From Mobula hypostoma (taxonomy: Eukaryota), in contig NC_086107.1 of NCBI RefSeq assembly GCF_963921235.1, positions 114,454,001 through 114,518,000 of the forward strand: 64,000 nucleotides of DNA, read 5' to 3'. The notes beneath the pieces were generated by a model. The model made no database searches. It had not been told where the DNA came from and saw only the letters and a program-made list of their open reading frames with translations. Below, in pieces: positions 8,815 to 64,000 of the stretch. The position numbers and the translations under genes were made by a program. Numbering within the stretch: the first letter of the stretch is position 1; each line of letters begins with the position of its first letter.

Positions 8815-9620
8815 GGGACTAGATCGGAGTGTCAGCCCCCCAGGGACGGGAGGACAGCACCCCCACCCCCAGGGACGGGAGGGCAGCACGGACCGGATCG
8901 GAGTGTCGGCCCCCCCCCCCCAGGGACGGGAGGGTAGCACGGACTGGATCGGAGTGTCGGGGCCCCCCCCCAGGGACGGGAGGGTAGCACGGACTGGATC
9001 GGAGTGTCGGGGCCCCCCCCCCCCAGGGATGGGAGGGTAGCACGGACTGGATCGGACTGTCGGCCCCCAGGTACGGGGGGGGCAGCACGGACCGGATCGG
9101 ACTGTCAGCCCCCCAGGGGGGATGGGAGGGCAGCACGGACCGGATCGGAGTGTCGGGGCCCCCCCCCCCAGGGATGGGAGGGTAGCACGGACTGGATCGG
9201 ACTGTCGGCCCCCAGGTACGGGGGGGGGGCAGCACGGACCGGATCGGACTGTCAGCCCCCCAGGGGGGATGGGAGGGCAGCACGGACCGGATCGGAGTGT
9301 CGGGGCCCCCCCCCCCCAGGGATGGGAGGGTAGCACGGACTGGATCGGACTGTCGGCCCCCAGGTACGGGGGGGGGCAGCACGGACCGGATCGGACTGTC
9401 AGCCCCCCAGGGGGGATGGGAGGGCAGCACGGACCGGATCGGAGTGTCAGCCCCCCAGGTACAGGGGGGCAGCACGGACCGGATCGGACTGTCAGCCCCC
9501 CAGGGGGGATGGGAGGGCAGCACGGACTGGATCGGAGTGTCAGCCCCCCAGGTACAGGGGGGCAGCACAGACCGGATCGGAGTGTCAGCCTTCCCCCCCC
9601 CAGGGACGGGAGGGCAGCAG
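8815..9620. repeat. GC-rich minisatellite, ~50-60 bp units
   Basis: Repeated (G/C)AGCACGGAC(C/T)GGATCGGA(G/C)TGTC followed by C-runs and G-runs. Confidence 0.95.
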
Positions 9621-10790: not shown

Positions 10791-10972
10791 TTAGCTGTTG
10801 CGGAGGATGAGTTTGTCCTCGGCGCAGCGGAAGGAGGCAGGGGGGGCCGAGTCCTCGGCAAAGCGCTGACACGCCTCCACCGTCACCTGTCTGCAGGAGC
10901 GCAGGTCAATGCGACAGAGGTTGGGGCATCGGCGGAACAGGGGCAGGCAGTGGTCTGTGAGCCGAGGGCAGC
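10791..10972 (-). CDS. FBXL19: FBXL19 exon 10, last coding exon
   Basis: ccccag|(G)[37 protein letters not shown]...[30 protein letters not shown] is characteristic of FBXL19. Confidence 0.95.
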
Positions 10973-11193
10973 CTGGGGAGAAAGACACATTAGTGTAAAA
11001 AGGACACAACTAATCAGAGGGAGCGTGAGGGGAGGGGACAGGCGTGCGAAGGGAGAGGCACACATACTTTGCACGGCAGGGGGAGGACTGTGGGCGGACT
11101 GGGGGGAGGGGCCAGTCTAGGGATGGACGGGGGGTGGGGGGCTGGCCTAGGATGGACGAATGGGGGTGGTGGAGGGCCAGTGCGTGGACGTAC

Positions 11194-11412
11194 CAGACAG
11201 GTTGAGCTCCCTCAGGCTCTCGCGCAGTGGACAGGTGACGGCGGTCAGCAGGTTGACCGATTGGTCCCCCACCTGACCACACTGGCTGAGGTCAAGGCGC
11301 CGTAGACGGGGCAGGGTCCGGGCCAGCAGACGCAGCGAGGTGTCTGTCACCTCCAGACCTGACAGGCGCAACTCCATCACGTTCGGCAGCCGTCCCCGGC
11401 CCTCCAGCTGTC
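11194..11412 (-). CDS. FBXL19: FBXL19 exon 9, LRR
   Basis: cacag|(G)[29 protein letters not shown]...[34 protein letters not shown]|gtacgt; 219 nt, phase 1-1. Confidence 0.95.
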
Positions 11413-11530
11413 CTGTGGGGGGTTGGAGAGACAGGATCAGTCATTTAGGTCAACGCTCACCATCCTCCTAACGCATCACCCTCCCAACACGCACCCAATA
11501 CCTCCTCCCCCTCCCACACCTGGCACTGAC

Positions 11531-11692
11531 CTGGCCTGCTGTCAGCCGGAGGGGACAGCAGCTCGCGGAGCTGGGAGTCCTTGACGTCCTGCACCCAGCG
11601 CAGGTCGAGCAGTCGCAGGGATGAGCAGCTGGCGGTGCAGAGGGCCGACACCGAGGACCACGAACAGCCCGACAGGATCAGTTCCCTCAGCC
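11531..11692 (-). CDS. FBXL19: FBXL19 exon 8, LRR
   Basis: ccccag|(G)[53 protein letters not shown]|gtcagt; 162 nt, phase 1-1. Confidence 0.95.
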
Positions 11693-36265: not shown

Positions 36266-36296
36266 GGGACAATGAGGAACTCAGTCCCACACTCAC

Positions 36297-36460
36297 CTTG
36301 CAGCCGGTTCAGGAGCCACATGAGCTGCTTACTGGAGATGCAGGCCCAGCTGAGGTCGAGCAGGGCGGGCTGCCGCCGGATGATGCCACTCAGCATGGCT
36401 GGCGTAATCGACTTCTGCCGGCTCAGGTCAATTCTGGTCCACAGCTGCTTGTCGCAGCAC
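36297..36460 (-). CDS. FBXL19: FBXL19 exon 7, end of F-box and LRR start
   Basis: ccccag|[54 protein letters not shown](G)|gtgagt; 164 nt, phase 2-1. Confidence 0.96.
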
Positions 36461-36931
36461 CTGGGGAGATGGGGGGAAGGAGGCAAGGCCCAAGGGGAGG
36501 CACAGGTCAGGATGCAGCCATGTTAACTGACTTGTTTTCCCCTCCATCCTTGTCCAGCCCCAGGGCCGATCAAAACCACTGCCACCCTCATGAAATAGTG
36601 AATGCCCTGCCCTGGGTGGGGACTACCTGACCCAATCACTCCCCTGACTTCACAGTGCTCCCACCCCATGCACCGACAATGCTACACCATCCCACTCACC
36701 CCCACAGCCCCTCTCCACTCCCAATACACCAATACTTCACCAACAACCAACACCCACACTGTGAGGAATTACAGCATGGAAAATATGTAAACAAAAAGAT
36801 AGAGAAAGATGGGGGGGGCAGGCACAGAGAAGGGAGAGGATACAGAGGGTGGGGTGTTGCAGGAGTCAGAGGGGAGTGGGGTGTAACCCACAGCAGACGT
36901 GCCCACCCCCACAACCCCGTCCCTGACTCAC

Positions 36932-37698
36932 CACCGGTTCAGTGTCCGGCAAACCCTCATGCAGACGCAGAGGTCTCGCTGGCTCAGGTAGCGAAAGACG
37001 GCAAGCCAGGCGTGACGCTGGAGTACATGGTCGGTCCCTGAGTCCAGGGGCAGAGAGTCTGGCTCCGGGCTGTCAGGGGGAGGCTTCACCACGTGCCTCT
37101 CCATCTGCAGGGGCCTGGGAGGCGAGGAGATGGGTGGCCGGCTCAGGAACGGACTGCGGGGTGCCGGCACCTGGGGGCGAGGGGGCTTGAGACGCCCTGA
37201 CCCCTGGGCCGCCCCCTGCCCCTGACCTGGGCCCTGCCTCATCCGTTCCCGGCGGGATCCCGGCTGCCCCTCCTTCCCCTGCGGCTGCTCCCTCAGCCGG
37301 GCCCTGCCGTTGCGGGGAGGGTCTGCCTCCTCCCCACGACCCTCCTCCTCCTCCGCCTCTTCCTCCTCTTCTTCATCCTCCTCACTGGCACTGAAGCCCA
37401 GGGCAGCTGCCGTGGTCCCGCGTTCCCTCCCATTGGAGCCGAGCCTGCCCCCTCCATCGCTGCTCTCCTCTTCCTCCTCCTCCTCGTCTTCCTCCTCCTC
37501 ACCACCCCTCCCTTCCTCAGAGTCCTGGGAGTCGGAATCGGAGTCGGAGGCCGAGCTGGAGCTGGAGCTGGAGCTGCGGGTCTGGCTCACCCGCTCCAGC
37601 ATCTGGCACATGCGCTTGAAGTGCTCCAGCTTCTCGCGCTGGGGAGTGCGCTCACTGGCCAGGGCGCCGTCCTCCGGCCCGCGGACCACCTTCTGTTT
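36932..37698 (-). CDS. FBXL19: FBXL19 exon 6, Ser/acidic linker and F-box
   Basis: cacag|KQKVV...[19 protein letters not shown]...[22 protein letters not shown]...[25 protein letters not shown](W)|gtgagt; 767 nt, phase 0-2. Confidence 0.95.
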
Positions 37699-40944: not shown

Positions 40945-41136
40945 CTTCTTCCGGGGCCCGGCATCCACTGGCCCATCCCTCTCCTTTTTCCTCTTGTGAC
41001 CCTCTTCGCCTTTCCTGTGGTTGGGGGCCAGATACTCATCCGTCCGATGCCTGCTACCCTCCTCGAGCTTCCAGCGGGGTCCCTCCTCACCATCAGAGCG
41101 TCTCTTCCCTCCGCCCTCCGTCTGGTCCTTCCCGTC
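40945..41136 (-). CDS. FBXL19: FBXL19 exon 5, charged linker with basic NLS-like clusters
   Basis: ccccag|DGKDQTEGGGKRRSDGEEGPRWKL...HKRKKERDGPVDAGPRKK|gtgaga; 192 nt, phase 0-0. Confidence 0.88.
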
Positions 41137-41472
41137 CTGGGGGGCAGGGGCGAAAGAGAGGGCAGCAGAATGAGAGGTCAAGTGAGAGGGAGCGTGGGGC
41201 ACTACGGCAGAACTGGAAGGATGAACTGAGGAAGAGAGTGAGGGGAAGAGGCGGGACAGACCACAGAGCTTGTGAATGAGGAAACGCCAGCTGGGAGAGA
41301 GTGCAGGGGAGACTAGGAGAAAGAAGGGGGATAGAGAGAAGAACAGGGAGAGTGGGTGGTTAGGCAAGAGGGCTGGGATGTGGTCTGGGGAAAGGCTAGT
41401 GGGAGGGTGGGGACGGCATCACTCTCTGCCCTGCACGTACTGACTGAGCTCTGCTTTGCGATTAGGACCCAC

Positions 41473-41559
41473 CTTGCTCGACCTGCCTTCCTTCCGACAC
41501 TTGGGACATTCCCAGCAGTTGGGAATCTCATCGTTGATGATGCCCTCGACGTCGTAAAC
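41473..41559 (-). CDS. FBXL19: FBXL19 exon 4, PHD finger C-terminal part
   Basis: ttcag|[29 protein letters not shown]|gtgggt; 87 nt, phase 0-0. Confidence 0.95.
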
Positions 41560-41688
41560 CTGAACACAGAGGTGAAACACAGCAGTGAGATTAGGACGGG
41601 TTGTTGGGGGGGCGGGGGAATGAATGGAGGAGGGAGGTGAACGGAGGGGTTTGAGGGCAGAGGAGGAAAGGAAGAGGAGGATGAAGAG

Positions 41689-42398
41689 GGACCAGTCATT
41701 GAAAGTGGGCATGCAGGTACAGCAGGCGGTGAAAAAGGCGAATGGTATGCTGGCATTTATAGCGAGAGGATTCGAGTACAGGAGCAGGGAGGTACTACTG
41801 CAGTTGTACAAGGCCTTGGTGAGACCACACCTGGAGTATTGTGTGCAGTTTTGGTCCCCTAATCTGAGGAAAGACATCTTTGTCATAGAGGGAGTACAAA
41901 GAAGGTTCACCAGATTGATTCCTGGGATGGCAGGACTTTCATATGAAGAAAGACTGGATGAATTGGGCTTGTACTCGTTGGAATTTAGAAGATTGAGGGA
42001 GGAATCTGATTGAAACGTATAAGATCCTAAAGGGATTGGACAGGCTAGATGCAGGAAGATTGTTCCCGATGTTGGGGAAGTCCAGAACGAGGGGTCACAG
42101 TTTGAGGACAGAGGGGAAGCCTTTTAGGACCGAGATTAGGAAAAACTTCTTCACACAGAGAGTGGTGAATCTGTGGAATTCTCTGCCACAGGAAACAGTT
42201 GAGGCCAGTTCATTGGCTATATTTAAGAGGAAGTTAGATATGGCCCTTGTGGCTAAATGGATCGGGGGTATGGAGAGAAGGCAGGTACAGGGTTCTGAGT
42301 TGGATGATCAGCCATGATTGTACTGAATGGCGATGCAGGCTCGAAGGGCCGAATGGCCTACTCCTGCACCTATTTTCTATGTTTTCTATGTTTCTATG
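41689..42398 (+). mobile_element. Young 5'-truncated CR1 LINE with (TTTCTATG)n tail
   Basis: [19 protein letters not shown]...RKNFFTQRVVNLWNSLP; tail repeats; candidate target-site duplication ATGAAGAG at 41681 and 42396. Confidence 0.93.
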
Positions 42399-42817
42399 AA
42401 GAGAGAGGGGAATGCTCTGCCAAACGCGACCCCTGTGCCTAAGGATATGTGTGGGGGCAGTTAGCTAGGAAATACAGGCCCACGTGAGCAGGAAGACGCA
42501 GATGCATGCAAGCAGCAGAGAAACACGGCTCCAGCATAAAATGAGTTGGGGCTAAAGTGCAGTCTCTGAATAGAGAGGCACTGGGGGAGTGGGTCTGAGG
42601 TAAGGGCAGAGAGAGGGAGGATGGACTGAGAATGAGAGTGAAAACAGAGGGACAGTGACGGCAGCACTGAGGGAGGAGGGTAGGCAGGTAAAACTATGAG
42701 GCAGCAGTGTGAGAAGACACCAATATCAAGGATATTGAGCTTAAACCCCAATCCTCTCCCCACCACCCTGGATCCATGCGCTCTCTCCATCGACTCACCT
42801 CCCCACGCCTCACCCAC

Positions 42818-42961
42818 CTTCAGACAGCCCGGGTGGACGATCTCATTACAGATGGTGCACTCCATCAGGGACAGGTTAAACTTCTCGGATTCTCCTTCCA
42901 CTGAATCCTCTTTGCCTGCTTCCCAACACATTAGGCAGACGGCTGTATGAGGGAGCACCGG
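42818..42961 (-). CDS. FBXL19: FBXL19 exon 3, PHD finger N-terminal part
   Basis: cag|[48 protein letters not shown]|gtgggt; 144 nt, phase 0-0; EAGKED..EG and [19 protein letters not shown] are FBXL19-like. Confidence 0.96.
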
Positions 42962-43074
42962 CTGTTGGGGTAAGAACAGGTCAGTGCAGGGACCCAGGAG
43001 CAGATGGAGGTACTGCCTTGCAGTTAGCTAGTCCTGACTGCCTGCACTGCTTGAGAAGACAAGGAGTAAGAGTG

Positions 43075-44520
43075 AGCTTCACTCTGTGTCTGACCCCGGG
43101 AGTGTGTGATGGGACGGTGCAGAGGGAGCTTCACTCTGTGTCTGACCCCGGGAGTGTGTGATGGGACGGTGTGGAGGGAGATTCACTCAGTGTCTGACAC
43201 CGGGAGTGTGTGATGGGACAGTGTGGAGGGAGCTTCACTCTGTGTCTGACCCCGGGAGTGTGTGATAGGACGGTATAGAAGGAGCTTCACTCTGTGTCTG
43301 ATCCCGGGAGTGTGTGATGGGACGGTGTGGAGGGAGATTCACTCTGTGTCTGACCCCGGGAGTGTGTGATGGGACGGTGTGGAGGGAGTTTCACTCTGTG
43401 TCTGACCCCGGGAGTGTGTGATGGGACGGTGTGGAGGGAGCTTCACTCTGTGTCTGACCCCGGGAGTGTGTGATGGGACGGTGTGGAGGGAGATTCACTC
43501 TGTGTCTGACCCCGGGAGTGTGTGATGGGACGGTGTGGAGGGAGTTTCACTCTGTGTCTGACCCCGGGAGTGTGTGATGGGACGGTGTGGAGGGAGTTTC
43601 ACTCTGTGTCTGACCCCGGGAGTGTGTGATGGGACGGTGTGGAGGGAGATTCACTCTGTGTCTGACCCCGGGAGTGTGTGATGGGACGGTGTGGAGGGAG
43701 TTTCACTCTGTGTCTGACCCCGGGAGTGTGTGATGGGACGGTGTGGAGGGAGATTCACTCAGTGTCTGACACCGGGAGTGTGTGATGGGACAGTGTGGAG
43801 GGAGATTCACTCTGTGTCTGACCCCGGGAGTGTGCAATGGGACGGTGAGGAGGGAGATTCACTCTGTGTCTGACCCCGGGAGTGTGTGATGGGACGGTGT
43901 GGAGGGAGCTTCACTCTGTGTCTGACCCCGGCAGTGTGTGATGGGACCGTGTGGAGGAAGATTCACTCTGTGTCTGACCCCGGGAGTGTGTGATGGGACG
44001 GTATGGAAGGAGCTTCACTCTGTGTCTGATCCCGGGAGTGTGTGATGGGACGGTGTGGAGGGAGATTCACTCTGTGTCTGACCCCGGGAGTGTGTGATGG
44101 GACGGTGTGGAGGGAGATTCACTCTGTGTCTGACCCCGGGAGTGTGTGATGGGACGGTGTGGAGGGAGTTTCACTCTGTGTCTGACCCCGGGAGTGTGTG
44201 ATGGGACGGTGTGGAGGGAGATTCACTCTGTGTCTGACCCCGGGAGTGTGTGATGGGACGGTGTGGAGGGAGATTCACTCTGTGTCTGACCCCGGGAGTG
44301 TGTGATGGGACGGTGTGGAGGGAGTTTCACTCTGTGTCTGACCCCGGGAGTGTGTGATGGGACGGTGTGGAGGGAGTTTCACTCTGTGTCTGACCCCGGG
44401 AGTGTGTGATGGGACGATCTGGAGGGAGATTCACTCTGTGTCTGATCCCGGGAGTGTGTGATGGGACGGTGTGGAGGGAGATTCACTCTGTGTCTGACCC
44501 CGGGAGTGTGCGATGGGACG
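43075..44520. repeat. 52-bp minisatellite, ~28 copies, FBXL19 intron 2
   Basis: TTCACTCTGTGTCTGACCCCGGGAGTGTGTGATGGGACGGTGTGGAGGGAGA in highly homogeneous tandem copies. Confidence 0.98.
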
Positions 44521-44615: not shown

Positions 44616-44834
44616 TGCCGTGCACTGTCGCAGAAGGCAGGACTGCTTCATGCGGCCGGGACCCCCGAACTTCTTCATGTCCTTGCAGAAGTGGCACTCG
44701 CCGCACTCGCTCTTCTGGCAGGCATCGCACTTTCGGCAGCGGGTCCTTCTGCGCCGGGCCCCGCTCGCTCCCTTGCTGGAGGGCACCTTCGGTGCTGAGG
44801 ACATTGGTGCTTTCGGCTTTACCTTGGCCTTGGA
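44616..44834 (-). CDS. FBXL19: FBXL19 exon 2, CxxC zinc finger
   Basis: ctgcag|[16 protein letters not shown]...[49 protein letters not shown]|gtgagt; KDM2/FBXL19-type CxxC; internal ATG at 44804. Confidence 0.96.
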
Positions 44835-45229
44835 CTGCAGGGAGGAGGGGCAGCAATCAATGGGGTGGGGCACAGAGCAGACACCTTCCCGTATCAACCT
44901 GGTTGGACTCATCTCTCCCAACACTAGCCCCCCGCCCCTCCCACCTTCCCTACCCCAGACTTATTCACGAGGGTCTGGCGAGGGACAGCTTCAGGAAGCC
45001 AGACGGGTGGGAGCAGCCAGAACACCAGGTTGAGAGCTGGCCCAGGGCAAGGTAAGATTTCACTTTTCACACTGTGTGGGCTGTCGGGATACGTGGTGGG
45101 TGGGTGGGCGAAGAAACAGAGTATTGCCAAGTCAACGTAGAGACTGTTGGTCGGGGGTGAGAGAAAGAGGATCTGCACTGGAAGGATTGGAGGGGTAGGT
45201 GGAGAGAGCTTTGAATAAATTGCAGTGGA

Positions 45230-45730
45230 TGATTAGAACTGGCCAGTCAAGGGACATCCGTCTATTTTGAGGCTGTGTCCTCTGGATCCAGAGTGCCCCA
45301 CTATAGGAAACATCCACACATTCACTCTATCCAGGTTGCAAGGAGATCCCCTCCTCATTCTTCTAAGCTCTAATGAATATAGGCCCAGAGACAACAAATA
45401 CTCCTTGTATGTTAATCCTTTTCTGATCATTGCTGTGAACCTCCAATGCCAGTACATCTTTTCTTGGTTATGGAGCCCAAAACTGCTCAGAATACTGTAG
45501 ATGTTGTCTGACCTGCATGTTATAAAGCCTCAGCATTACATCCTTGCTCATATATTCTAGTCCTCTCAAATGAATGCGAACACTGCATTTGCCTTCCTCA
45601 TCACCAACTCCACTTGCAAGTTAACCCTTCGGGAATCCAGCACAAGGGACTCACAAGTCCCTTGCAGCTCTGATTTTTGGAATTTGCTCCCTGTCTAGAA
45701 CACTGCCTTCGTCTTTGCTTTCTTTATGAA
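45230..45730 (-). mobile_element. Decayed CR1 fragment interrupted by a younger LINE
   Basis: KGLTYKEYLLSLGLYSLELRRMR; homology appears to resume briefly at about 46531-46560. Confidence 0.8.
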
Positions 45731-45732
45731 AT

Positions 45733-46530
45733 GTGTGCCGACAACAACCTGGCCCTTAACACCCAGAAGACCAAGGACATTGTGGACTTCAGGCATGCTA
45801 GGAGTCACAGTCATGTCCCCATCTATATCAACGGAGCTGTAGTGGAGCGTGTATCAAGCTTCAAATTCCTTGGTGCCCACATTTCCAATGATCTCACCTG
45901 GTCCCTGAACTCCTCCATCCTGATCAAAAAGACACAACAGTGCCTTTATTTCCTGCGGAGCATCAAGAAAGCTCACCTCTGTCCCAGGATACTGACGGAC
46001 CTTTACCGCTGTACCATTGAGAGTATACTCATCAACTGCATCTCAGTGTGGTATGGCAATTGTCCCGTATCGGACCGCAAAGCACTCCAGCGTGTGGTGA
46101 AAACTGCCCAGCGGATTATCAGCACCCAGTTGCCCACTATTGAGAACATCTACCATAAACGCTGCCTGGGCAGGGTAAAACGCATTATCAAGGATGCATC
46201 TCACCCTAACCATGGACTTTTTACTCTCCTCCCATCCGGTAGGCGCTACAGGAGCCTCCGCTCCCGCACCAGCAGGCACAGGAAGAGCTTCTTCCCTGAG
46301 GCTGTGACACTGCTGAACCTCACATCACAGCGCTAAGCAGTATTGCACCCATATTGTACTGTCTCAGTACTTTTATATTTGTGTGCTGTAGCACTTAATT
46401 TTTATTCCCAGTTATTTTGTAAATAACACTATTCTTTGCATTTCTGGTCAGATACTAACTGCATTTCAGTGACTTTGTATCTGTACTCGGCACAATGACA
46501 ATAAAGTTGAACCTAATCTAATCTAATCTA
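45733..46530 (+). mobile_element. Young Rex1/Babar-type LINE 3' end with (AATCT)n tail
   Basis: Open ~200 aa: CADNNLALNTQKTK.IVDFR...VERVSSFKFLG...YRCTIESIL..CISVWYGN...LFTLLPSGRRYRS; AATAAA then CTAAT repeats. Confidence 0.92.
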
Positions 46531-46819
46531 GCATCATCTTACACTTCCTTACACTGTGCCTTAAATTTGTGGGAATACTTTCTAATTAAAATGAATAGCA
46601 TCAGGACAACAGGGGTATTTTTGTGACGGAATAATTTCTCAATGGCATATGGGATGTCCACTGTTGGGGACTATTCTGGAATTATGACATTATGGATAGC
46701 CAAATTATGGATGAACAAAAGTGCTCACTAGTCTTCAAGAAAAAAAACCTGTAAATAATTTTGCGTAGCATTCGGATACTATCCTATTGAAACTAACAGG
46801 GAAGTCAATAGATAGTGCA

Positions 46820-47295
46820 GGACACATTTCCCATTTTAATTCCATTCCCCATTCCGACATGTCGATCCATGGCCTCCTCTTCTGCCATGATGTGGAGCAA
46901 CACCTCAGATTCCATCTGGGTACCCTCAAACCTGATGGCATGAACATCGAATTCTCTAATGTGCAGTATTTTTCCCCCTGTTCCCCTTCCCTCTTTAATT
47001 CCCCACTCTGGACCCCCATCTTACCTCCTCTCACCTGCCTATCACCTCTCCCTGGTTCCCCTCCCCCCGTCTTTCTGCCTTGGTCCACTCTCCTTTCCCA
47101 TCGGACTCCTTCCTCTCCAAGCTTCTTCCTTCATCGCTGCTCACCCACCTTCCCCCTCAACTGACAGTTGTACTCTTCCCACCCTCCTCACCATCTTCCA
47201 CCTTCCCCTCCCGCCCTGCAGAAGGGTCTCAGACTGAAACATTGACTGTTTAATCATTTCCATTGATGCTGTCTGACCCGCTGAGTTCCTGCAGC

Positions 47296-47297
<2 letters not shown>
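46820..47297 (+). mobile_element. Penelope-like element 3' fragment (GIY-YIG C-terminus plus terminal repeat)
   Basis: SHFNSIPHSDMSIHGLLFCHDVEQHLRFHLGTLKPDGMNIEFSN, followed by a pyrimidine-rich UTR and a degenerate hammerhead at 47216-47249. Confidence 0.75.
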
Positions 47298-47331
<34 letters not shown>

Positions 47332-47388
47332 TGTGAGAGAGAGTGTGTGTGTGTGTGTGTGGAGTGTGTGTGTGAGTGTGAGAGTGTG

Positions 47389-47419
<31 letters not shown>

Positions 47420-47529
47420 GAGTGTGTGTGGAGTGTGTGTGGAGTGTGTGTGTGTGTGTGTGTGTGAGTGAGTGTGTGTGGAGTGTGAGTGAGTGTGTGT
47501 GTGTGTGTGTGAGTGAGTGAGTGTGTGTG

Positions 47530-47567
<38 letters not shown>

Positions 47568-47617
47568 AGTGTGTGTGGAGTGTGTGTGTGTGTGTGTGTG
47601 TGTGTGGAGTGTGTGTG

Positions 47618-47664
<47 letters not shown>

Positions 47665-47680
47665 AGTGAGTGTGGAGTGT

Positions 47681-47715
<35 letters not shown>

Positions 47716-47757
47716 GAATCTGTGTGTGTGTGTGTGTGTGGAATCTGTGTGTGTGTG

Positions 47758-47789
<32 letters not shown>

Positions 47790-47795
47790 TGCGTG
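47298..47795. repeat. Compound (GT)n/(GCGT)n microsatellite
   Basis: About 500 bp of GT repeats interrupted by GGA/GA, grown from the end of a Penelope-like fragment. Confidence 0.98.
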
Positions 47796-48259
47796 CAACA
47801 GATCTGTTCTCTCTCCCACCTGGTGAGTTGTACATTCACGGAGCTGTGCTTCAATGCTGTAACAAAGAGGGTATATTTTGGGAGGCTGGTTTTAGGAACA
47901 GACACCAGTATTGAATATTCAAAGGGGTTCTGCCAGTTGGGATGTGCTGCCAATGTAATTCAGTGAATTTACCTGACTACACTGTAAATGTTAAAGTGGG
48001 CAATTATAGCAATTGAAACTGTAGCTGATCCTATATTGTTTCATTTGTGTTAAATAAATATAAAGCATTCTATCAGGAGAGTGTGTTTCTCCTGGATTCT
48101 CTCTCCTGAAGGTTCGCTGTGTGAATAAAGACTTGTGTTTCCCAGTAATGGCTTCCATGTGATTCAGTTTTAGTTCAGTCACAGCATGGTTAACACTATG
48201 CTTTACAGTACCCACCACCTGGGCTCCATGCCAGCCCGTGCCAGAAGGGCAAAGGGCAT

Positions 48260-48995
48260 CACACACAAAATGCTGGAGGAACACAGATCAGGCAGCATCA
48301 ATGGAACCTACCAGCCTTCTCCTTCGCACCCTCCCCCCACCTTCTGCCCCTTCCCTCTACAGTCCTGATGAAGGGTTCCGGCCCGAAACGTTGACCGATC
48401 TTTTACACGGATGCTGCCCGACCTGCTGAGTTCCTCCAGCGGGTTGTGAGTGTATCAATGGAGATGAATACATAGTTGATGTTGGGCCAAGACACTTCTT
48501 CAGGACTGCAAAGGAAGGGGGTAGATGCCAGAATAAAGAGGTGGGGAGAAGGGAAGGAGGGCCATCTAAAAGGTGATAGGTGGAAAAGGTAAAGGTACTG
48601 AATATGACAGGAGAGAGGACCATGGAAGAAAGGGAAGGCGGGGGGGGGGGGATCAGGGAGAGAAAAGAGGCTGGAGTGGGGAAGAGAAGACGGAACAAGA
48701 ATTTGATGGTCATGCCATCAGGATGGAGGTTACTTATGAGGTGTTGCTCCTCCACCCTGAGAGTGGCCTCTTGGATGCGTTTGTGTTCATTAGTTGAGGC
48801 ACTGAGCCCAAGATTTACCATACAAAACACTGGGAAAACTCAGCAGGTTAGACAGCATCTAAGGAGGGGGATAAACAGTCGATGGTTTAGGGGGTGATTC
48901 TGGAAATGAAGGAGACAGAAGCCCGAATAAGGTGGTGGGGGGGCGGGGGTCAGCATTTTGTGATTTCCCGCATCTGCAGAATCTCTTCAGTCTGC
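48260..48995. mobile_element. Cluster of oppositely oriented Penelope-like fragments
   Basis: Minus-strand EATLRVEEQHLISNLHPDGM remnant; hammerhead-bearing terminal repeats on both strands. Confidence 0.7.
48360..48397 (+). ncRNA. Minimal type I hammerhead ribozyme motif
   Basis: CAGTC-CTGATGA-A-GGG ttccgg CCC-GAAA-C-GTT-GACCG: conserved core, stem II, and stem I with one mismatch. Confidence 0.6.
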
Positions 48996-50699
48996 GATTC
49001 AGAAAGTTCCTCTGCATCGGGATTGCTGCATTCAGATCTGGTCACCCCCATTACAGGGAGAGTGTGGCGGCTTTGGCAGGGTGGAGAAGAGGCTGACCAG
49101 GATGCTGCTTGGCTTAGAGGGCGTAAGTGTTAAGGAGAGGTCAGACAAACGTGGGTTGTTTTCTCTGGAGTGACAGAGGCTGAGGGGAGATCTGACAGGT
49201 CTGTAAGATTATGAAAGGCACAGAACAGACAGCTGTTATCTTTCATTTGTACTTGTACAATTGAACCACTCTTATCTCCATGATTTCAGAACAGCTTCTT
49301 CCCCTCTGTAATCACATTTCTGAACGGTCCATTACGGCTTATGAGAGGCATAGAGAGAAATAAAAGATACTCTATCTCTACAGGTTATCTCCAAGCCTTT
49401 CTTATCTTAAACTTTCGGAACACTCAACGATTCCAGAAGAGCATTGTCCTCTCCTCCACTAGATTTCCAAAAGGTCCAAGAACTCGTGAACACTACCTCG
49501 TTATTTCATTTTACACGTCTGAACTGAACTGCCACCACAAAACAAACTTCACATTGTAACAAACCTGATTCCACTTCCCGTTACCCTCCAAGAACCACTG
49601 CACAATGCTCGTCACACATTTTACTCATTGGCGGTGGGGCTACCAGTGGGTGGGGAAGTTCAGAACACACCAGGAGGGATAAGGCACATCAGCCTCAACG
49701 GGGATGGGGGTCCAGGCAGAAAACACAGTACAAAGTAGTACAACTTCACTACTTTGTACACCCCCCGGTCCTTAGGGATACCGCACCCTGTCCTTTCCTC
49801 ACCACGCCCACCCCCCCACAAACCATGCACCTCAGAATCAGAATATCACTGACACAGACCATGAAATCTGTTACTTTGCTGCAGCAACTCCAGGATGTTC
49901 GTAAGTTACAAAAATAAATGAATACTGCAAAGGAGCCATAACAAGGTGGTGTTCACATGTGCATGGTCTGATAGCAGAGGAGAAGAAACTGTTCCTACAA
50001 CATTGAGTGTGGGTCTTCAGGCTCCTGCACTCTCCCCGATGGTAGTAATGAGACGAGGGTCCTTAATGATGGATGCTACCTAACGGAGGTACTGTCACTT
50101 GAAGAAGGGCAGAAGAGTTGTGCAGCCCACCCACTCACTCCAGCACCGGGACACGGCAGCAGCCTGTACCATCTACAGGAGGCACTGCAGCAGCTCACCA
50201 AGGCCTCTCGGAGAGACACCTCACAACCCAACAACTCTCCCACCAAGGACATGGACAGCAAAAGCACAGAGAACACCAGGCCTGCCGGAGGTTGCCCTCC
50301 AAGCAACGCAGCACCCAGACTTGGAAAAACGTCACCCTTCCTTCACTATCGCTGGGTGGCAAGCCCACAACTCCCTCCCACCTGCCATCAACTGACTACT
50401 CAACAGCAACTAAATGCTGCCCCAGCTGGTGAAGACCACACCCATGAATAAATACAAGAGAAATATATTTGGCAGGTTGGGAAAACTGAAGAAAAACTGT
50501 CCCATTTCTGTCCAGATCCACAAACCCAGCCCCAATTCCTGGATCATTTGAAAAAATAGATCAACTTTCTCTTTTGATACCTCAACAATCCAACCTTCAC
50601 AACCAGCCAAGATGGAGAATTCCAGCCTCCTGAGAGAGGTTAGTGCATACTTCAGTTTTAACCGATTACTCCCTTATAACCACCCCTGTGATGCTGAAT

Positions 50700-51435
50700 A
50701 TGTACTTTCTCATGGCCTCAGGATGCAAAGCGATACCCCTTATTCTTCTAAATGATGCATCGGTACATCGTCCACTCACCGATAATCAACACAGGTGCAC
50801 ATCAAGGATGCCTGCTCTCATGACGTGGGGGTAAACTCAGCTCAAACACCATCTATAAATTCACCAACAGCACCATTGTTATTGGTAGACGAGGTGGTGT
50901 ACAGGAGTGAGAAAGATGAGCTGGTTGAAAGGAGTAGCAGTAACCACAACGCACTCGATGTCAGCAAGATCAAGGAATTGATTGTGAACCTCAGGGTGAA
51001 CACACACCAGTACTCATCCAGGGATCAGCAGTGGAAATGGAGAGCAGCTTCAAGTTCTTGGATGTCAACATCTTTGGGCCCAACATATTGATGCAATCAT
51101 TAAGAAAGCACACCAGCGACGATACTTAATTAGGAGTTTGAGGAGATTTGGTGTGTCAACAAAGGCACTCACAGATTTGCTTACGTACACGGTGCAGAGC
51201 ATTCAGAGTTACATCACTACGTGGCATCATTCTAATACAAAGGATCAAGAGACTGCGGAGTATCACAAACTCAGCCAGCAACATCATGGTCACCTTCATC
51301 AGGCTGTGCTGCAAGAAGGCAATATCCACCGCTAAGGACGTGCCTTCTTCTCACTACTACTATCAGAAAGGAAGTACAAGAGCCTGAAGACTCACTCAGC
51401 GATTCACGCAGCTTCTTTCCTTCTAAATGGTTCAC
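50700..51435 (+). mobile_element. Decayed Rex1/Babar-type LINE
   Basis: NHNALDVSKIKELIVN and RRFGVSTKALT remnants. Confidence 0.75.
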
Positions 51436-51449
51436 AAAACCACAAACAC

Positions 51450-52390
51450 TACTCTGAATCAGGTTTATTATTAACGGCATGTTATGTGTCGTGAAATTTG
51501 TTAGCAGTTCAATGCAATACGTAACATAGAACAAAAAAAGAGTAAATCAATTACTGTATATGTATACTGAATAGATTCAAAATCCTGCAAAAACAGAATA
51601 TATTTTTAAAAAAGTGAGGTAGTGTTCACTGGTTCAATGTCCATTTAGGAATCGGATGGCAGAGGGGAAGAAGCTGTTCCTGAATCGCTGAGTGTGTGTC
51701 TTCAGGCTTCTGTATCTCCTACCTGATGGTAACAGTGAGAAAAGGGCATGCCCTGGGTGCTGGAGATCTTTAATAATGGACGCTGCCTTTCTGAGATACC
51801 GCTCCGTGAAGATGTCCTGGGTACTTTGTAGGCTAGTGCCCAAGATGGAGCTGACATTCACAACGCTCTGCAGCTTCTTTTGGTCCTGTGCAGCAGCCCC
51901 TCCATACCAGACAGTGATGCAGCCTGTCAGAATGCTCTCCACAGTACATCTACAGTCGTTTTTGAGTGTTTTTGTTGACGTACCAAATCTCTTCAAACTC
52001 CATTCTAATGAAGTATAGCCACTGTCTTGCCTTCTTTATGACTGCATCGATATGTTGGAACCAGGTTAGATCCTCAGAGATCTTGACACCGAGAAACTTG
52101 AAGCTGCTCACTCTCTCCACTTCTGATCCCTCTATGAGGATTGGTATGTGCATCTTCGTTTTACCCTTCCTGAAGTCCACAATCAGCTCTTTCGTCTCAC
52201 TGACGTTGTGCCAGGTTGTTGCTGTGCCACCACCTGACTAGTCGGCTTATCTCGCTCCTGTAATCCCTCTCGCCACTACCTGAGATTCTACCAACAATGG
52301 TTCTATTGTCAGCAAACGTATAGATGGTATTTGAGCTATGCCTAGCCAGACAGTCATGGGCATAGAGAGAGTAGAGCAGTGGGCTTCACC
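51450..52390 (-). mobile_element. Rex1/Babar-type LINE 3' part
   Basis: DFRKGK...VERVSSFKFLGVKISEDLTW; RCTVESILTGCITVWYG...HPGHALFSLLPSGRRYRSLKTHTQRFRNSFFPSAIR. Confidence 0.9.
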
Positions 52391-53299
52391 ATTCCTTTCT
52401 CATGCACCATTCAGTTTTATAATTTACGGTAATTACACGTCACTGCAGCCACAAAACAACAAATTTCACAGCATACAAGTCAGTGATAATAAAGCCAATT
52501 CGTGGACCGAAATCTCAGCTGCTGGTCCAAGACGTCTGCTGCTCAGCAGGACTCAAGTGTGGCCCCAGGTATACACAGACGAATTATTTTACCTGATGCA
52601 GGAGGGAGAATGGTGGAAAAAGTAATCTAGCTGGAGAGGATGCAGAAGATATTCGAAATCTATCTTACTGCCTTCTCCCATATACCTGCATCCTCACCAC
52701 ATCCCTCCCATCCAGGTCCCGCCACTGCCTTGTAAGGAGTTTGTATGTTCTCCCCGTGACCGTGCGAGTTTCCTCCCACAATCCAAGGACGTAGATTGTT
52801 AGCAGACTGATTGATCACTGTAAATTGTCCCATGGTCAGGTTGTGATTAAATCAGCGGTTGCTGGGCAATGTAGCTTGAAGGGCTGGACCGGCCTATTCT
52901 GCACTGTACATTAACAACAAAATACACCTATCCAGGCTTCTCATTAATGCTACAATTGATCCCACTTCAACTATTTCCACTGGCAGCTCGTGCACACTGA
53001 GTAAGAAAGATCCCCCTCAGATTCTCCTTAAACATTTCACCTTTCACCCTAAACCTATGACCTCTAGCTCACCCAAGCTGAGGAGGAAAAGGCCTGCATG
53101 CATTCATATACTCCTCCTAATGTTGTAAACCTCTCAATAAGATCGCCCCTCATTCTCCAGTGCTTCAAGGGTCTAACCCCGCTGAGTTTAACCCCTACCC
53201 CTGTATTCAATTCCCCTCCCTCCCCTTGTTCTCTCAAGTTTTTAACCCCTTCCCATCTCCCTCCTCCGGGGTTGCACCCCCTCACCCCTTCTCCTCCAG

Positions 53300-54600
53300 G
53301 AGCTTCATCCCGCGATTTAACCTCCCCCTCCCTACCACCAGCACCCCCTTTCTCCGCTCACCTGTCCGCCGCTCTCCTGCTCCTCATCCTCGGGCCCCAG
53401 CGCCATGTCAGGGCGATGCGGCGGAGCGGGCCTGGGCCATTTCCCCTGCTCGGCCGGCCGGCCGGCTCCGGGGGGAGGGGGGTGGCGTGTGCCCCGGTCC
53501 CCCACCACCCGCCGCCGCCAGGAGAATTTAAAAACCAGACGATGTCTCTCACCCCCACTTCACCTCAAGCACTGAGCGACAAAATTTTTTAAAAAGTAAC
53601 TTTCCCCTCCCCACCACCCCACCCCCCTGGTGGGACGGCGGCTCTGCGCAGCCCCACCCGCCTTCACATCGCCCCCCTGCCCCTCAGCTACCGCCCGCAG
53701 CACCGCGGCCCCTTCGCCGCTCCTCCGCTTCGCTCCATTATGTCTCCATCATGGCGGCGGCTGGCCTTCCGTCGGTCCGTACTCCCTCCCTCCCCGCCCG
53801 CCCGCCCCAACTTCCCAGACAGCACGCAGATGCCGAGCGCCAGAGGGCCGTCGGGAAATGTGGTTCATACGGCAGACAGCGGACTGGGGGCAAGGGCAAA
53901 GTGGACTACACTTCCCGGCGGGCACTACGGTCAGAGCACTGAGCGGGCAGCCGGCTGTCCCCACGTGCGGTGGCCAACGGGAAGTGTAGTTCAATAGCCT
54001 AGGAGCCTAGCGAAGTGTAGTGGGCAGTTGACAACATTTCCCGGCGGGCACCACGGCTACGGAAGCTGGGCAGGTAGCAGACGCTCCTCTAACCACGGTG
54101 TCCGTCGGTAAGTGCAGTCCTGCCAGCCACCCTCTCCTATACAGTAATTGCCTTCAGCCTTCCAAAATACATTCCCGCCCGGCATTTTGGTAAGAGAGCC
54201 TCGCTGACGGAGCTGGCAGTACGGCCATGGGGGCTGGGCAGGCGGCGGAATCTCCGCCGGGCGTGGTGTCCACTGGGAAGTATAGTTTACGACGGTGGAT
54301 AGGTTTAAACGACAACAAATCCCGGTGGGCAACTTGGCACTGAGAAATGGACAGGTCGCAGACTCAAATCGCGCGGTGACCGCCGGGATATGTAGTTTTC
54401 TTAGCCTGTAGAAACGGGAAGAGTGTGGGAGCAGAACTGCAACCCCCAGCGGCCACCGCGGGAATCTAGCACCGCCCGTCCCTGGCCCTCCGAGTGCCCC
54501 GGGACCACCAGAGCAGTAACTGCAACATCCCATTGACTGGCATCGCCTCATCTCCGGCTGATGGCACCGGTGTCTCCGTCAGCCTTCAGCATCTGTCCAC
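53300..54600. promoter_or_regulatory. CpG-island promoter of FBXL19 with ZNF143/THAP11-type, YY1-like and E-box motifs
   Basis: High GC and CpG density around exon 1; ACTACAnnTCCC-like motifs at 53905, 53979, 54031, 54273, 54312, 54385; catcATGGCGGC at 53747; CACGTG at 53962. Confidence 0.85.
53362..53406 (-). CDS. FBXL19: FBXL19 putative coding exon 1 (MALGPEDEEQESGGQ)
   Basis: ATG in strong context (gacATGG) inside a CpG island; ends CAG|gtgagc in phase 0, in frame with the acceptor at 44834. Confidence 0.75.
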
Positions 54601-54854
54601 TTGCAAACACGTCCCAACAGGTTCAAGCTCAAGTACGCCGAGCTCTTAACCACACACACAATCTACGGTGATATGATCTTAACCTTGTCCACCGCCCTTG
54701 TACAGTTTATGTTGCATTTTGTTCTTTGGTTCCTTTTAGCCGAGTCTGCTCCTGGGGATAAGCTCCCACTGCCTATGAAATGCTCCCAATCAACACACAC
54801 AAAAATGCTGGAGGAAAGCAGGTCGGACAGCACGGATGGAAATGAATAAAGTCC

Positions 54855-60920: not shown

Positions 60921-61097
<177 letters not shown>

Positions 61098-61204
61098 TCA
61101 AGCAGGGGAGTGGAAAGGAGGACAGGTTTAGCACGCAAGGTGGGGTGGCAGAACTACGGGAAGGTGGGGGAGTGGTGCAGGATAGGCCGATTGGGTGGGA
61201 TTCT

Positions 61205-62205
61205 GTTGGGGGTGCGAACGGCAGGAATACATGGGAAAGGATGGTGTCCTGTTGGGAGTGCGGACAGTGGGAATGAACGGGAAAGGATGGTGTCCTGGTG
61301 GGAGTGCGGACGGTGGGAATGAACGGGAAAGGATGGTGTCCTGGTGGGAGTGCGGACGGTGGGAATGAACAGGAAAGGATGGTGTCCTGTTGGGAGTGCA
61401 GACAGTGGGCATGAATGGGAAAGGATGGTGTCCTGGTGGGAGTGCGGACGGTGGGAATGAACGGGAAGGGGTGAGATTCATCAGGAGTGCGGACGGTGGG
61501 AATGAACAGGAAAGGATGGTGGCCTGTTGGGAGTGCGGACGGTGGGAATGAACGGGAAAGGATGGTGTCCTGGTGGGAGTGCGGACGGTGGGAATGAACG
61601 GGAAGGGGTGAGATTCATCAGGAGTGCGGACAGTGGGAATGAACAGGAAAGGAAGGTGTCCTGTTGGGAGTGCGGACGGTGGGAATGAACCGGAAAGGAT
61701 GGTGTCCTGGTGGGAGTGCGGACGGTGGGAATGAACGGGAAGGGGTGAGATTCATCAGGAGTGCGGACAGTGGGAATGAATGGGAAAGGATGTTGTCCTG
61801 GTGGGAACAAATGGGAAAGGATGGGGTCCTGGTGGGAATGAATGGAAAAGGATGGTGTCCTGGTGGGAGTGCGGACGGTGGGAATGAACGGGAAAGGATG
61901 GTGTCCCGTTGGGAGTGCGGACAGTGGGAATGAATGGGAAAGGATGGTGTCCTGGTGGGAGTGCGGACGGTGGGAATGAACGGGAAAGGATGGTGTCCCG
62001 TTGGGAGTGCGGACGGTGGGAATGAACGGGAAGGGGTGAGATTCATCAGGAGTGCGGACCGTGGGAATGAATGGTAAGGGATGGGGTCCCGTTGGGAGTG
62101 CGCACAATGGGAGCAAACCGAAAGGGGTGACATCCCACTGGGAGTGCAGACGGTGGAAGAGAATGAAAAGGGCTGGGTCACATTGGGAGTGCCGTTGATG
62201 GGAGT
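61205..62205. repeat. 46-bp minisatellite in last BCKDK coding intron
   Basis: GGGAGTGCGGACGGTGGGAATGAACGGGAAAGGATGGTGTCCTGGT tandem copies with an AGGGGTGAGATTCATCA variant. Confidence 0.96.
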
Positions 62206-62387: not shown

Positions 62388-63404
62388 CTGGGAACGATAG
62401 CGGGGGCACATTTGACGGAACTCCCTATGTTACCCTTCACGTGTGGTTCAGCTAGTAAGCCTGGAGCAACCGTTTCTACTGAGAGGAGAAGGGGCAAGGG
62501 TGGGCTATTGGCACCTTAAAACCAGTTGCTTCAGGCAAATAGGACTCGACAGCCATGGTTGGCAGCTCAGCTAGGAGATGAAAATTCTGATCTCAAACCT
62601 CTGCTGCCTTGCCGCTACACCCTACGCTCCAAGGGAAAGGTCCAGAGCTGGGGTCCCCAGGGCAGTCCTACAGAGTTCAACGCTGACTGGCAACTCCTGT
62701 GACGCTGCTGCTGCCAAACTGTATCGGTCTCCGCCGTTCCTTTGGGTTCATCGGATACGTAGAGAGGGGGAGCCTACTGCATGGGCAACAGCTTGCTCTC
62801 CATATCACACTGCCCAGGCTTGTGTACTCAGACTGCTAGGACCCAATATCCATAGTCAGCTCTGACCGTCAGAAGCCCTCACTTCACCTCTCATTACCTA
62901 TACAGTCACTCATTGAAGATAAACGCCCTCTGGCCCAACCAAACCCTGCTGCCCAAAGTGCTCACCCAGCTAGGCCCAGTCTCCTGTTTTTGCCCCCTAT
63001 CCTTCGAAACGCTTATCAAGTGCTTCTTAAATGATGCAGTTGTACCTACCTCAACCACTTCCATAAACCCTCCACCCTCGAACAAAAAAAGCTGCCCCTT
63101 GGGTCCCTGTCTCTTCATTACTCTGGGAAAAGACCGTGACCGTCCACCTTCTCTCTGCCCCGCATGATTTTGTGAAAGTATAAGGCTGCTTCTCATTGTC
63201 CAATGTTGCCTGGATACCCGTTCCCTCTAACTCAGGCCGTCCAGTTCAGGCAACGTGCTGGTAAACCTGTTCTGAATTCCTTTCTGGTTTCAGTATGTCC
63301 CTCCCATCACAGGGTCACCAAACCTGCTCACAACATTCCTTGTGTGGCCTCATGTACCCACACGTAACTGTTCTATAGCGAGCACGGTGCTCACAGGAGG
63401 GAGA

Positions 63405-64000
63405 GATTGTGTGGGGGAATCTGTATTAATGTCAGCAGGGATACAGCAGTGACAGTGCAGGGGGAGAGGGGTCACTGAGGGATGGTGTGAGGGAGCTGGA
63501 TTAACGTCAGTGGGGATACAGTCAGTGACAGTGCAGGGGGAGAGGGGTCACTGAGGGACAGTGTGGGGGAGCTGGATTAACGTCAGTGGGAATACTGTTA
63601 GTGACAGTGCAGGAGAGAGGGGTCACTGAGGGACAGTGTGGGGGAATCTGTATTAATGTCAGCAGGGATACAACAGTGACAGTGCAGGGGGAGAGGGGTC
63701 ACTGAGGGATGGTGTGAGGGAGCTGGATTAACGTCAGTGGGGATACAGTCAGTGACAGGATGCTGGGGGAGAGGGGTCACTGAGGGATGGTGTGGGGGAG
63801 CTGGATTAACGTCAGTGGGGATACAGTCAGTGACAGTGCGCTGGGGGAGAGGGGTCACTGAGGGACGGTGTGAGGGAGCTGGATTAACATCAGTGGGGAT
63901 ACAGTCAGTGACAGGATGCTGGGGGAGAGGGGTCACTGAGGGATGGTGTGGGGGAGCTCGATTAACGTCAGTGGGGATACAGTCAGTGACAGGATGCTGG
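63405..64000. repeat. 75-78 bp minisatellite in BCKDK intron, runs off window
   Basis: GAGAGGGGTCACTGAGGGA...GGATTAACGTCAGTGGGGATACAGTCAGTGACAG repeated at 75-78 bp spacing. Confidence 0.95.

What the first reader, a model, noticed from the sequence alone, without database searches (positions are those of the whole stretch)
53362..53406. FBXL19 begins with an acidic leader exon resembling the KDM2B short-isoform first exon
Seen: a 15-codon exon MALGPEDEEQESGGQ in the CpG island splices in phase 0 to [30 protein letters not shown]. Recalled knowledge: the JmjC-less short KDM2B isoform starts from an internal promoter with an acidic leader (approximately MAMSVSAEDDDYESEPDQ) joined to NRAVGRPKGKLGPASAVKL...GARRRR, while mammalian FBXL19 is usually annotated from the MSS start. 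Inference: this gene retains the ancestral internal KDM2 promoter and leader. FBXL19 would then be a fixed short isoform of a KDM2 paralogue that lost its JmjC half. The next upstream gene is BCKDK, with no JmjC exons in between.
Basis: partly seen in the sequence, partly recalled or inferred. Interest (0 to 1): 0.7.

Follow-up and report, generated by a model that had tools for sequence, protein, structure and literature searches.

The report
FBXL19 keeps ancient short-isoform leader exon
In this ray the chromatin gene FBXL19 starts with a short acidic exon matching the one that opens the enzyme-less short form of its relative KDM2B, which suggests FBXL19 arose as a gene copy that kept only that short form.

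Summary
The exon is real and already annotated. The window encodes RefSeq XP_062919017.1 letter for letter, including the 15 codons. One contig in 1 of 4 laid runs joins 53362 to the start of exon 2. The leader occurs in FBXL19 models of 12 of 13 elasmobranch species and in none of 86 bony-vertebrate models. A matching leader, joined at the same point before the CxxC exon, opens KDM2B short forms from shark to mammal and lamprey and hagfish KDM2. Pairwise likeness is modest; position and intermediates carry the case. No JmjC remnant lies before BCKDK. Two further results. Cartilaginous fishes hold a fourth, JmjC-less KDM2 gene with the same leader, sister to FBXL19 (100/99). Teleost kdm2ba looks like a repeat of the loss: 0 of 99 models are JmjC-sized against 86 of 93 for kdm2bb. 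That FBXL19 resembles the short forms is published; I found no paper on the exon homology or the fourth gene. Synteny was not tested, so whole-gene loss versus partial duplication stays open.

The parts
53251..54500 (.). CpG island holding the leader exon and presumed promoter
   Evidence: GC 0.59-0.67, CpG o/e 0.76-0.83 in 500-base windows
53362..53406 (-). Coding part of the leader exon, 15 codons, phase-0 donor
   Evidence: residues 1-15 of P0004; contig loose end at 53362 in run X5
53407..53557 (-). 5' untranslated part of the same exon, minimum extent
   Evidence: contigs of run X5 cover 53387-53446 and 53448-53557; true start not shown
53408..53440 (-). Upstream ORF of 10 codons plus stop, ending one base before the leader ATG
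   Evidence: sequence only, use not shown
44835..53361 (-). Intron 1, GT..AG, 8,527 bases
44616..44834 (-). Exon 2: basic linker and zf-CXXC; in-frame ATG at 44804 (Met26) is a possible second start
40945..42961 (-). Three exons, PHD finger and start of linker (about 42961-42815, 41556-41473, 41136-40945)
   Evidence: exact-match segments of P0004, ends may be off by a few bases; Pfam
36295..37698 (-). Two exons, acidic linker and F-box (about 37698-36931, 36459-36295)
10791..11690 (-). Three LRR exons and stop (about 11690-11526, 11407-11192, 10970-10791)
60921..61065 (-). Last coding exon of BCKDK, the upstream neighbour; bounds the space for JmjC exons to about 7.4 kb
   Evidence: E 8e-23 to solved BCKDK chains; splice site read

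Best explanation
The exon is the FBXL19 copy of the alternative first exon (exon 1b) that gives KDM2B its JmjC-less short form. An early vertebrate KDM2 gene had JmjC exons, then an internal promoter with this acidic leader exon, then the CxxC-PHD-F-box-LRR exons. After whole-gene duplication one copy lost the upstream promoter and JmjC exons, so the internal promoter became its only one. That copy duplicated again into FBXL19 and a fourth gene kept only in cartilaginous fishes. In FBXL19 the leader then relaxed (Tyr lost, Gly/Pro insertions in sharks) and disappeared from bony-vertebrate models, which start at a downstream MSS. In this ray the exon supplies the start codon and a 15-residue acidic tail ahead of the basic linker and CxxC finger; the protein should work as a non-catalytic CpG-island adaptor like mouse FBXL19. 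Shown: exon, splice, conservation, matching position, missing JmjC, sister relation. Inferred: whole-gene duplication, single loss, promoter homology, translation and role of the peptide.
For: Same position: KDM2B long and short models diverge exactly where the leader joins (long ...WPKK-x-x-K then NRAV; short leader-Q then NRAV), and the window's junction aligns there. Teleost models differing by one Gln at the junction fit a phase-0 tandem acceptor (inference). Same motif M-x(1-3)-[LV]-S-x-D/E-acidic run in KDM2B short forms of basking shark, bird, marsupial, placentals and teleosts, in the fourth gene (20 of 20 identical), and in lamprey (P0294, P0451) and hagfish (P0325, P0452). Against four leaders from JmjC-bearing KDM2B genes, shuffles reach the window's score in 2 of 2000 (Met fixed) and 19 of 2000 (Met and Gln fixed); against the fourth gene's leader 0 of 3000. 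Hemichordate and echinoderm outgroups carry JmjC and CxxC-PHD-F-box in one chain, so the JmjC-less state is derived. FBXL19 and the fourth gene are sisters at 100/99; AU tests reject FBXL19+KDM2B (p 0.001) and fourth+KDM2B (p 0.002) and do not reject KDM2A+KDM2B (p 0.29). Internal promoters in both KDM2A and KDM2B are published (PMC7000146, PMC6753492; passages).
Against: Pairwise likeness to KDM2B is modest: 5 of 114 acid-rich Met-started 15-mers from elsewhere in KDM2-family proteins score as high (5 of 2420 overall), and one shuffle test gave 67 of 3000. Two short KDM2A models (P0301, P0417) show no acidic leader. The careful tree leaves the order of KDM2A, KDM2B, cyclostomes and FBXL19+fourth gene open, and cyclostome placement is unresolved (p 0.41). 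No promoter DNA from other species and no synteny were compared. The splice evidence is one contig of one run whose RNA status is a guess. All other N-termini are gene models, not protein data.
Confidence: 0.68

Rival explanations
1. Same exon homology, different route: only the 3' half of an ancestral KDM2 gene, from the internal promoter on, was duplicated, so this lineage never had JmjC exons to lose.
For: No JmjC remnant in the window. The tree does not fix a symmetric two-by-two topology.
Against: Four jawed-vertebrate paralogues, two of them on different large contigs of one species (117 and 61 Mb), fit two genome doublings. Eel kdm2ba keeps about 220 post-JmjC residues upstream of the linker (P0097, P0102), which looks like stepwise loss after a later doubling. 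Paralogous neighbours (ORAI, SETD1, BCL7) are recalled, not tested.
Confidence: 0.17
2. The exon is homologous but in ray FBXL19 acts mainly as a 5' UTR: the uORF ending one base before the leader ATG diverts ribosomes and most protein starts at Met26. This does not exclude the best explanation.
For: uORF 53440-53408 in a strong context. 4 of 26 elasmobranch records start at the internal MSS. The leader is looser in FBXL19 than in the fourth gene and absent from 86 bony models.
Against: Frame and the core L-x-P-E-D-E..E-Q-E-S are kept in 12 species, with length changes in whole residues. The leader ATG has G at -3 and +4; Met26 has C and T.
Confidence: 0.2
3. Convergence: each JmjC-less KDM2 transcript recruited its own short acidic first exon.
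For: Short, compositionally biased peptide; 5 of 114 acid-rich control 15-mers score as high.
Against: Same join point, same length class, shared terminal Gln in jawed vertebrates, a graded series through the fourth gene, and cyclostome copies.
Confidence: 0.05

Closest known systems
KDM2B-SF (short form from exon 1b)
   Same: Acidic Met-started leader joined to the basic linker before CxxC; CxxC-PHD-F-box-LRR without JmjC. Internal promoter described in PMC7000146 and PMC6753492 (passages).
   Different: There it is an alternative exon inside a JmjC gene; here it is the gene's first coding exon. The ray leader is 15 residues, not 16-18, and lacks the Ser and Tyr of the KDM2B motif.
Mammalian FBXL19
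   Same: Orthologue: one clade at 100/99 or 100; same domains. CpG-island binding and CDK-Mediator recruitment shown in mouse (PMC5997449, passages).
   Different: 0 of 86 bony-vertebrate models carry the leader; 72 of 86 have 20 or fewer residues before the CxxC arginines.
Chondrichthyan 'KDM2B-like' gene (fourth KDM2 paralogue, e.g. XP_062887479.1, XP_042194698.1)
   Same: JmjC-less models of 612-841 aa with the closest leader; sister to FBXL19.
   Different: Separate gene in the same species; leader invariant in 20 of 20 models; no bony-vertebrate member appeared among the listed hits.
KDM2A-SF
   Same: Internal promoter at about the same intron, JmjC-less product (PMC7000146, PMC7588095, passages).
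   Different: The two short KDM2A models seen have no acidic leader.
Pax10 versus paired-less Pax6 isoform
   Same: A 2R paralogue that mirrors a domain-less, alternative-promoter isoform of its sister (PMC4122933, passages).
   Different: Unrelated family; the passages read note the structural likeness but show no shared first exon.

Membership tests
FBXL19 | zf-CXXC, PHD, F-box, LRR and no JmjC | tested here: met
   Pfam on P0004 (LRR below its cut-off but aligned by tblastn)
FBXL19 | Groups with bony-vertebrate FBXL19, not KDM2A or KDM2B | tested here: met
   100/99; AU rejects FBXL19+KDM2B, p 0.001
FBXL19 | CpG-island binding and CDK-Mediator recruitment | not testable with these tools
   shown for mouse only (PMC5997449, passages)
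KDM2B exon 1b homologue | Met-started acidic leader motif | tested here: met
   rank 1 of 1376; shuffles 2 and 19 of 2000; but 5 of 114 acid-rich controls match
KDM2B exon 1b homologue | Joins the pre-CxxC exon at the point where long and short forms diverge | tested here: met
   protein-level alignment
KDM2B exon 1b homologue | Same intron phase in KDM2B | tested here: inconclusive
   phase 0 here; KDM2B phase only inferred from single-Gln variants
KDM2B exon 1b homologue | Homologous promoter DNA | not testable with these tools
   no vertebrate genomic DNA beyond the window was held
KDM2B-SF in the strict sense | Alternative exon inside a gene with upstream JmjC exons | tested here: not met
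   no JmjC match before BCKDK; it works like a short form but is a separate gene
2R ohnologue quartet (KDM2A, KDM2B, FBXL19, fourth gene) | Four jawed-vertebrate clades in a two-by-two tree | tested here: inconclusive
   four clades at 99-100; FBXL19+fourth 100/99; KDM2A+KDM2B 80 in the quick tree, open in the careful one, AU p 0.29
2R ohnologue quartet (KDM2A, KDM2B, FBXL19, fourth gene) | Loci on paralogous chromosome segments | not testable with these tools
   no genome held; ohnologue tables not found in three papers' supplements

The most novel reading that the evidence does not exclude
The KDM2 short isoform is a vertebrate-wide unit with its own conserved N-terminal peptide, older than the lamprey-jawed split. 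Genome doublings turned it into a free-standing gene at least twice: once giving FBXL19 plus an undescribed fourth KDM2 paralogue kept in sharks, rays and chimaera, and again giving teleost kdm2ba, with eels showing a half-lost stage. The acidic leader is a functional element specific to short forms, for example a phosphorylated tail that tunes the basic linker and CxxC finger.
Probability: 0.45. Interest if true: 0.68.

Novelty: new variant of a known kind. Interest (0 to 1): 0.5.

Why it matters
It turns a noted resemblance (FBXL19 looks like KDM2-SF) into a testable descent, with an exon as the marker. PMC7000146 asks whether demethylase-dead short isoforms are an old conserved device; the leader in lamprey and hagfish models suggests they are. 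PMC5997449 counts three vertebrate KDM2 paralogues; cartilaginous fishes seem to hold four. PMC7588095 states that short forms have no sequence of their own and so allow no specific antibody, yet stored KDM2B short models carry a unique 16-19 residue leader, which is both an epitope and a candidate functional element. If teleost kdm2ba is a short-form-only gene, fish offer a natural separation of catalytic and non-catalytic KDM2B roles.

Tried and rejected
Run search: no RNA holder listed; 22 rows, none on record as RNA. Of four runs laid on 52900-54800, X1, X2 and X19 gave no cover of the leader exon, and no run covered 53604-53859; lack of cover says nothing either way, so the start site is not fixed. 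The heavy cover at 53007-53071 and beyond 54750 is from repeats. Logan protein P0007 has leader plus exon 2 in one frame but continues into an unrelated CxxC protein, so it looks like an assembly chimera and is not counted as support. No hidden gene between the CpG island and BCKDK: 53 open frames of 55 aa or more gave no Pfam hit above cut-off (15 of the 68 listed frames, at the two ends or overlapping others, were not scanned; exons shorter than 55 codons are covered only by the tblastn). A leader profile over 53 pre-CxxC regions and cluster members hit four cyclostome proteins and one unnamed protein (P0291), and nothing else; long forms cannot show the leader, so this does not date its origin. 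No JmjC-bearing cyclostome KDM2 appeared among the 120 listed of 761 hits (547-1742 aa), but lamprey isoforms X1-X2 were not retrieved, so the JmjC state of that gene is open. Ohnologue assignments were not found in supplements of PMC13450315, PMC4504502 and PMC13489949 (two files of the last were not searched). Earlier findings of the scan: none. No structure model was obtained, so disorder of the leader is assumed, not predicted. Trees used 49 and then 29 hand-picked rows, cut to start at the CxxC, so the leader itself did not enter the tree.

Full report
Observation. On the minus strand 53406..53362 reads ATG plus 14 codons followed by GTGAGC. Exon 2 starts at 44834 after a pyrimidine tract and CAG, so the join is phase 0 over 8,527 bases. 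The exon lies in a CpG island at 53251-54500. A search with exon 2 returned RefSeq XP_062919017.1 (FBXL19-like, Mobula hypostoma, P0004) at 100%. All 726 residues map without mismatch to ten window segments, the first being this exon. The exon is therefore already annotated. In 1 of 4 laid runs (X5, RNA status guessed by the tool) one contig leaves the window exactly at 53362 and continues with the first 30 bases of exon 2. X5 contigs also cover up to 53557, a minimum 5' UTR of 151 bases.

Upstream. The last BCKDK exon lies at 61065-60921 on the same strand (E 8e-23 to solved BCKDK). tblastn with five KDM2B N-terminal halves gave nothing better than E 0.43 in the window, while a C-half control gave 8 matches at E<=1e-9. 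53 open frames between the island and BCKDK had no Pfam hit above cut-off.

Conservation in FBXL19. Of 26 elasmobranch FBXL19 records, 17 start with the leader, from 12 of 13 species. Four start at the internal MSS, three are fragments and two have other starts. None of 86 bony-vertebrate FBXL19 models carries it (best local score 16 against 30-35 for elasmobranchs). Bony models start 10 or so residues before the CxxC arginines, the ray's Met26 16 before. Carpet sharks show the shorter spacing too, so the bony start is either the same Met after a six-codon deletion or a new ATG.

Homology to KDM2B exon 1b. Short KDM2B models start with a 16-19 residue acidic leader in narwhal, gerbil, squirrel, pig, opossum and basking shark (MAMSVSAEDDDYESEPDQ in P0248, MSLSADDEEYDSDPEQ in P0254), with a longer variant in a bird and close variants in teleosts. 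Long models replace it at the same residue. Lamprey (XP_061417833.1) and hagfish models carry the motif too. The window's leader ranks 1 of 1376 possible mini-exons against KDM2B-type leaders, with shuffles reaching it in 9 and 67 of 3000. Against four leaders from JmjC-bearing genes the counts are 2 and 19 of 2000. Against this, 5 of 114 acid-rich control peptides score as high, so sequence alone is suggestive. The shared join point and the intermediates make the case. Two short KDM2A models lack the leader.

A fourth paralogue. The searches returned a second JmjC-less gene, labelled KDM2B or KDM2B-like, in 18 cartilaginous fish species including Callorhinchus and this ray (XP_062887479.1, on a 61-Mb contig against 117 Mb for FBXL19). 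Models are 612-841 aa, and those labelled X1 are 739-742 aa except one of 841. The two scanned have no JmjC. The leader is identical in 20 of 20 models and bridges FBXL19 and KDM2B (pairwise 34 and 42, against 26 direct). One search excluded proteins over 1271 aa, so a long form is not strictly excluded. In trees built from the CxxC onward this gene is sister to FBXL19: 97 (quick, 49 rows) and 100/99 (careful, 29 rows, 381 columns). AU tests reject joining either gene alone to KDM2B (p 0.002 and 0.001) and leave KDM2A+KDM2B (p 0.29) and the cyclostome position (p 0.41) open. Hemichordate and sea-cucumber outgroups have JmjC in the same chain.

A likely repeat in teleosts. Among hits of 600 aa or more, where long forms were allowed, 0 of 99 proteins with the kdm2ba-type linker have 400 or more residues before the CxxC, against 86 of 93 with the kdm2bb-type linker. 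These are related gene models sorted by a motif of mine, not independent events. Eel kdm2ba models keep about 220 post-JmjC residues without a JmjC hit.

Mechanism. Most likely an early vertebrate KDM2 gene already had an internal promoter with this leader exon. One duplicate lost the JmjC half and later split into FBXL19 and the fourth gene. The leader stayed strict in the fourth gene, loosened in elasmobranch FBXL19 and was dropped in bony FBXL19. A uORF ending one base before the leader ATG (53440-53408) could push initiation downstream; that is speculation. The protein should act as a non-catalytic CpG-island adaptor, by orthology to mouse FBXL19 (PMC5997449, passages). The leader's own role is untested; an acidic, possibly phosphorylated tail acting on the adjacent basic linker is my guess. 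Rivals are partial duplication (0.17), mainly untranslated use (0.2, compatible with the main reading) and convergence (0.05).

What is known. PMC3685328 says the short forms closely resemble FBXL19, and PMC7000146 says the same and asks whether short forms are conserved (passages). PMC6753492 describes the internal start sites (passages). PMC5997449 names KDM2B and FBXL19 as the two paralogues of KDM2A. PMC7588095 says short forms have no unique sequence (passages). PMC4122933 gives Pax10 as a parallel case (passages). PMC9916924, PMC10912607 and PMC2579438 (passages) added nothing on this point. Searches (listings) showed no paper on the leader homology, the fourth gene or JmjC loss in kdm2ba. 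The library lacks most subscription papers; Katoh and Katoh 2004 and Balow et al. 2013 were not seen and may cover synteny or the kdm2ba domain loss. Ohnologue tables were not in the supplements I could search. Isoform-to-paralogue partition after duplication is a known kind of event (also mitf and synapsin in teleosts; recalled, no call).

Verdict. Observation confirmed and interpretation supported, with the route of origin untested. New variant of a known kind, interest 0.5.

Noticed in passing
window 54024-54188 and 54739-54800 (+): One contig of run X1 (depth 6.8) skips 550 bases with GT..AG ends on the plus strand, pointing to a spliced divergent transcript from the same CpG island. A human FBXL19-AS1 exists (search listing); homology not tested.
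   Followed up: partly
window 11922-36264: A 24-kb G-rich tandem array (GC 0.74, units of 11-52 bases, CpG o/e near 0.9) fills one FBXL19 intron between the F-box and LRR exons.
   Followed up: no
window 53440-53408 and 53752-53738 (-): A uORF ends one base before the leader ATG; further upstream a GCCGCC-preceded ATG opens a four-codon ORF overlapping a third ATG.
   Followed up: partly
P0197, P0463-P0465 (Callorhinchus): The chimaera gene was labelled FBXL19 in an older annotation and KDM2B in the current one, but groups with the fourth paralogue.
   Followed up: yes
P0127 (Mobula birostris isoform X2): A model joins the leader directly to the PHD exon, skipping the CxxC exon, which would give a DNA-binding-less FBXL19.
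   Followed up: no
P0097, P0102 (eels): kdm2ba-type models keep about 220 residues of the post-JmjC region but no JmjC hit, a possible intermediate of loss.
   Followed up: partly
window 43070-44520, 47298-47795, 8860-9619, 61203-62102, 63401-63992: Further minisatellites (52, 2, 48, 46 and 78-base units) in introns and flanks.
   Followed up: no
window 60921-61065: BCKDK directly precedes FBXL19 here; in human other genes such as CTF1 lie next to FBXL19 (recalled). No such gene was found in the 7.4 kb between.
   Followed up: partly
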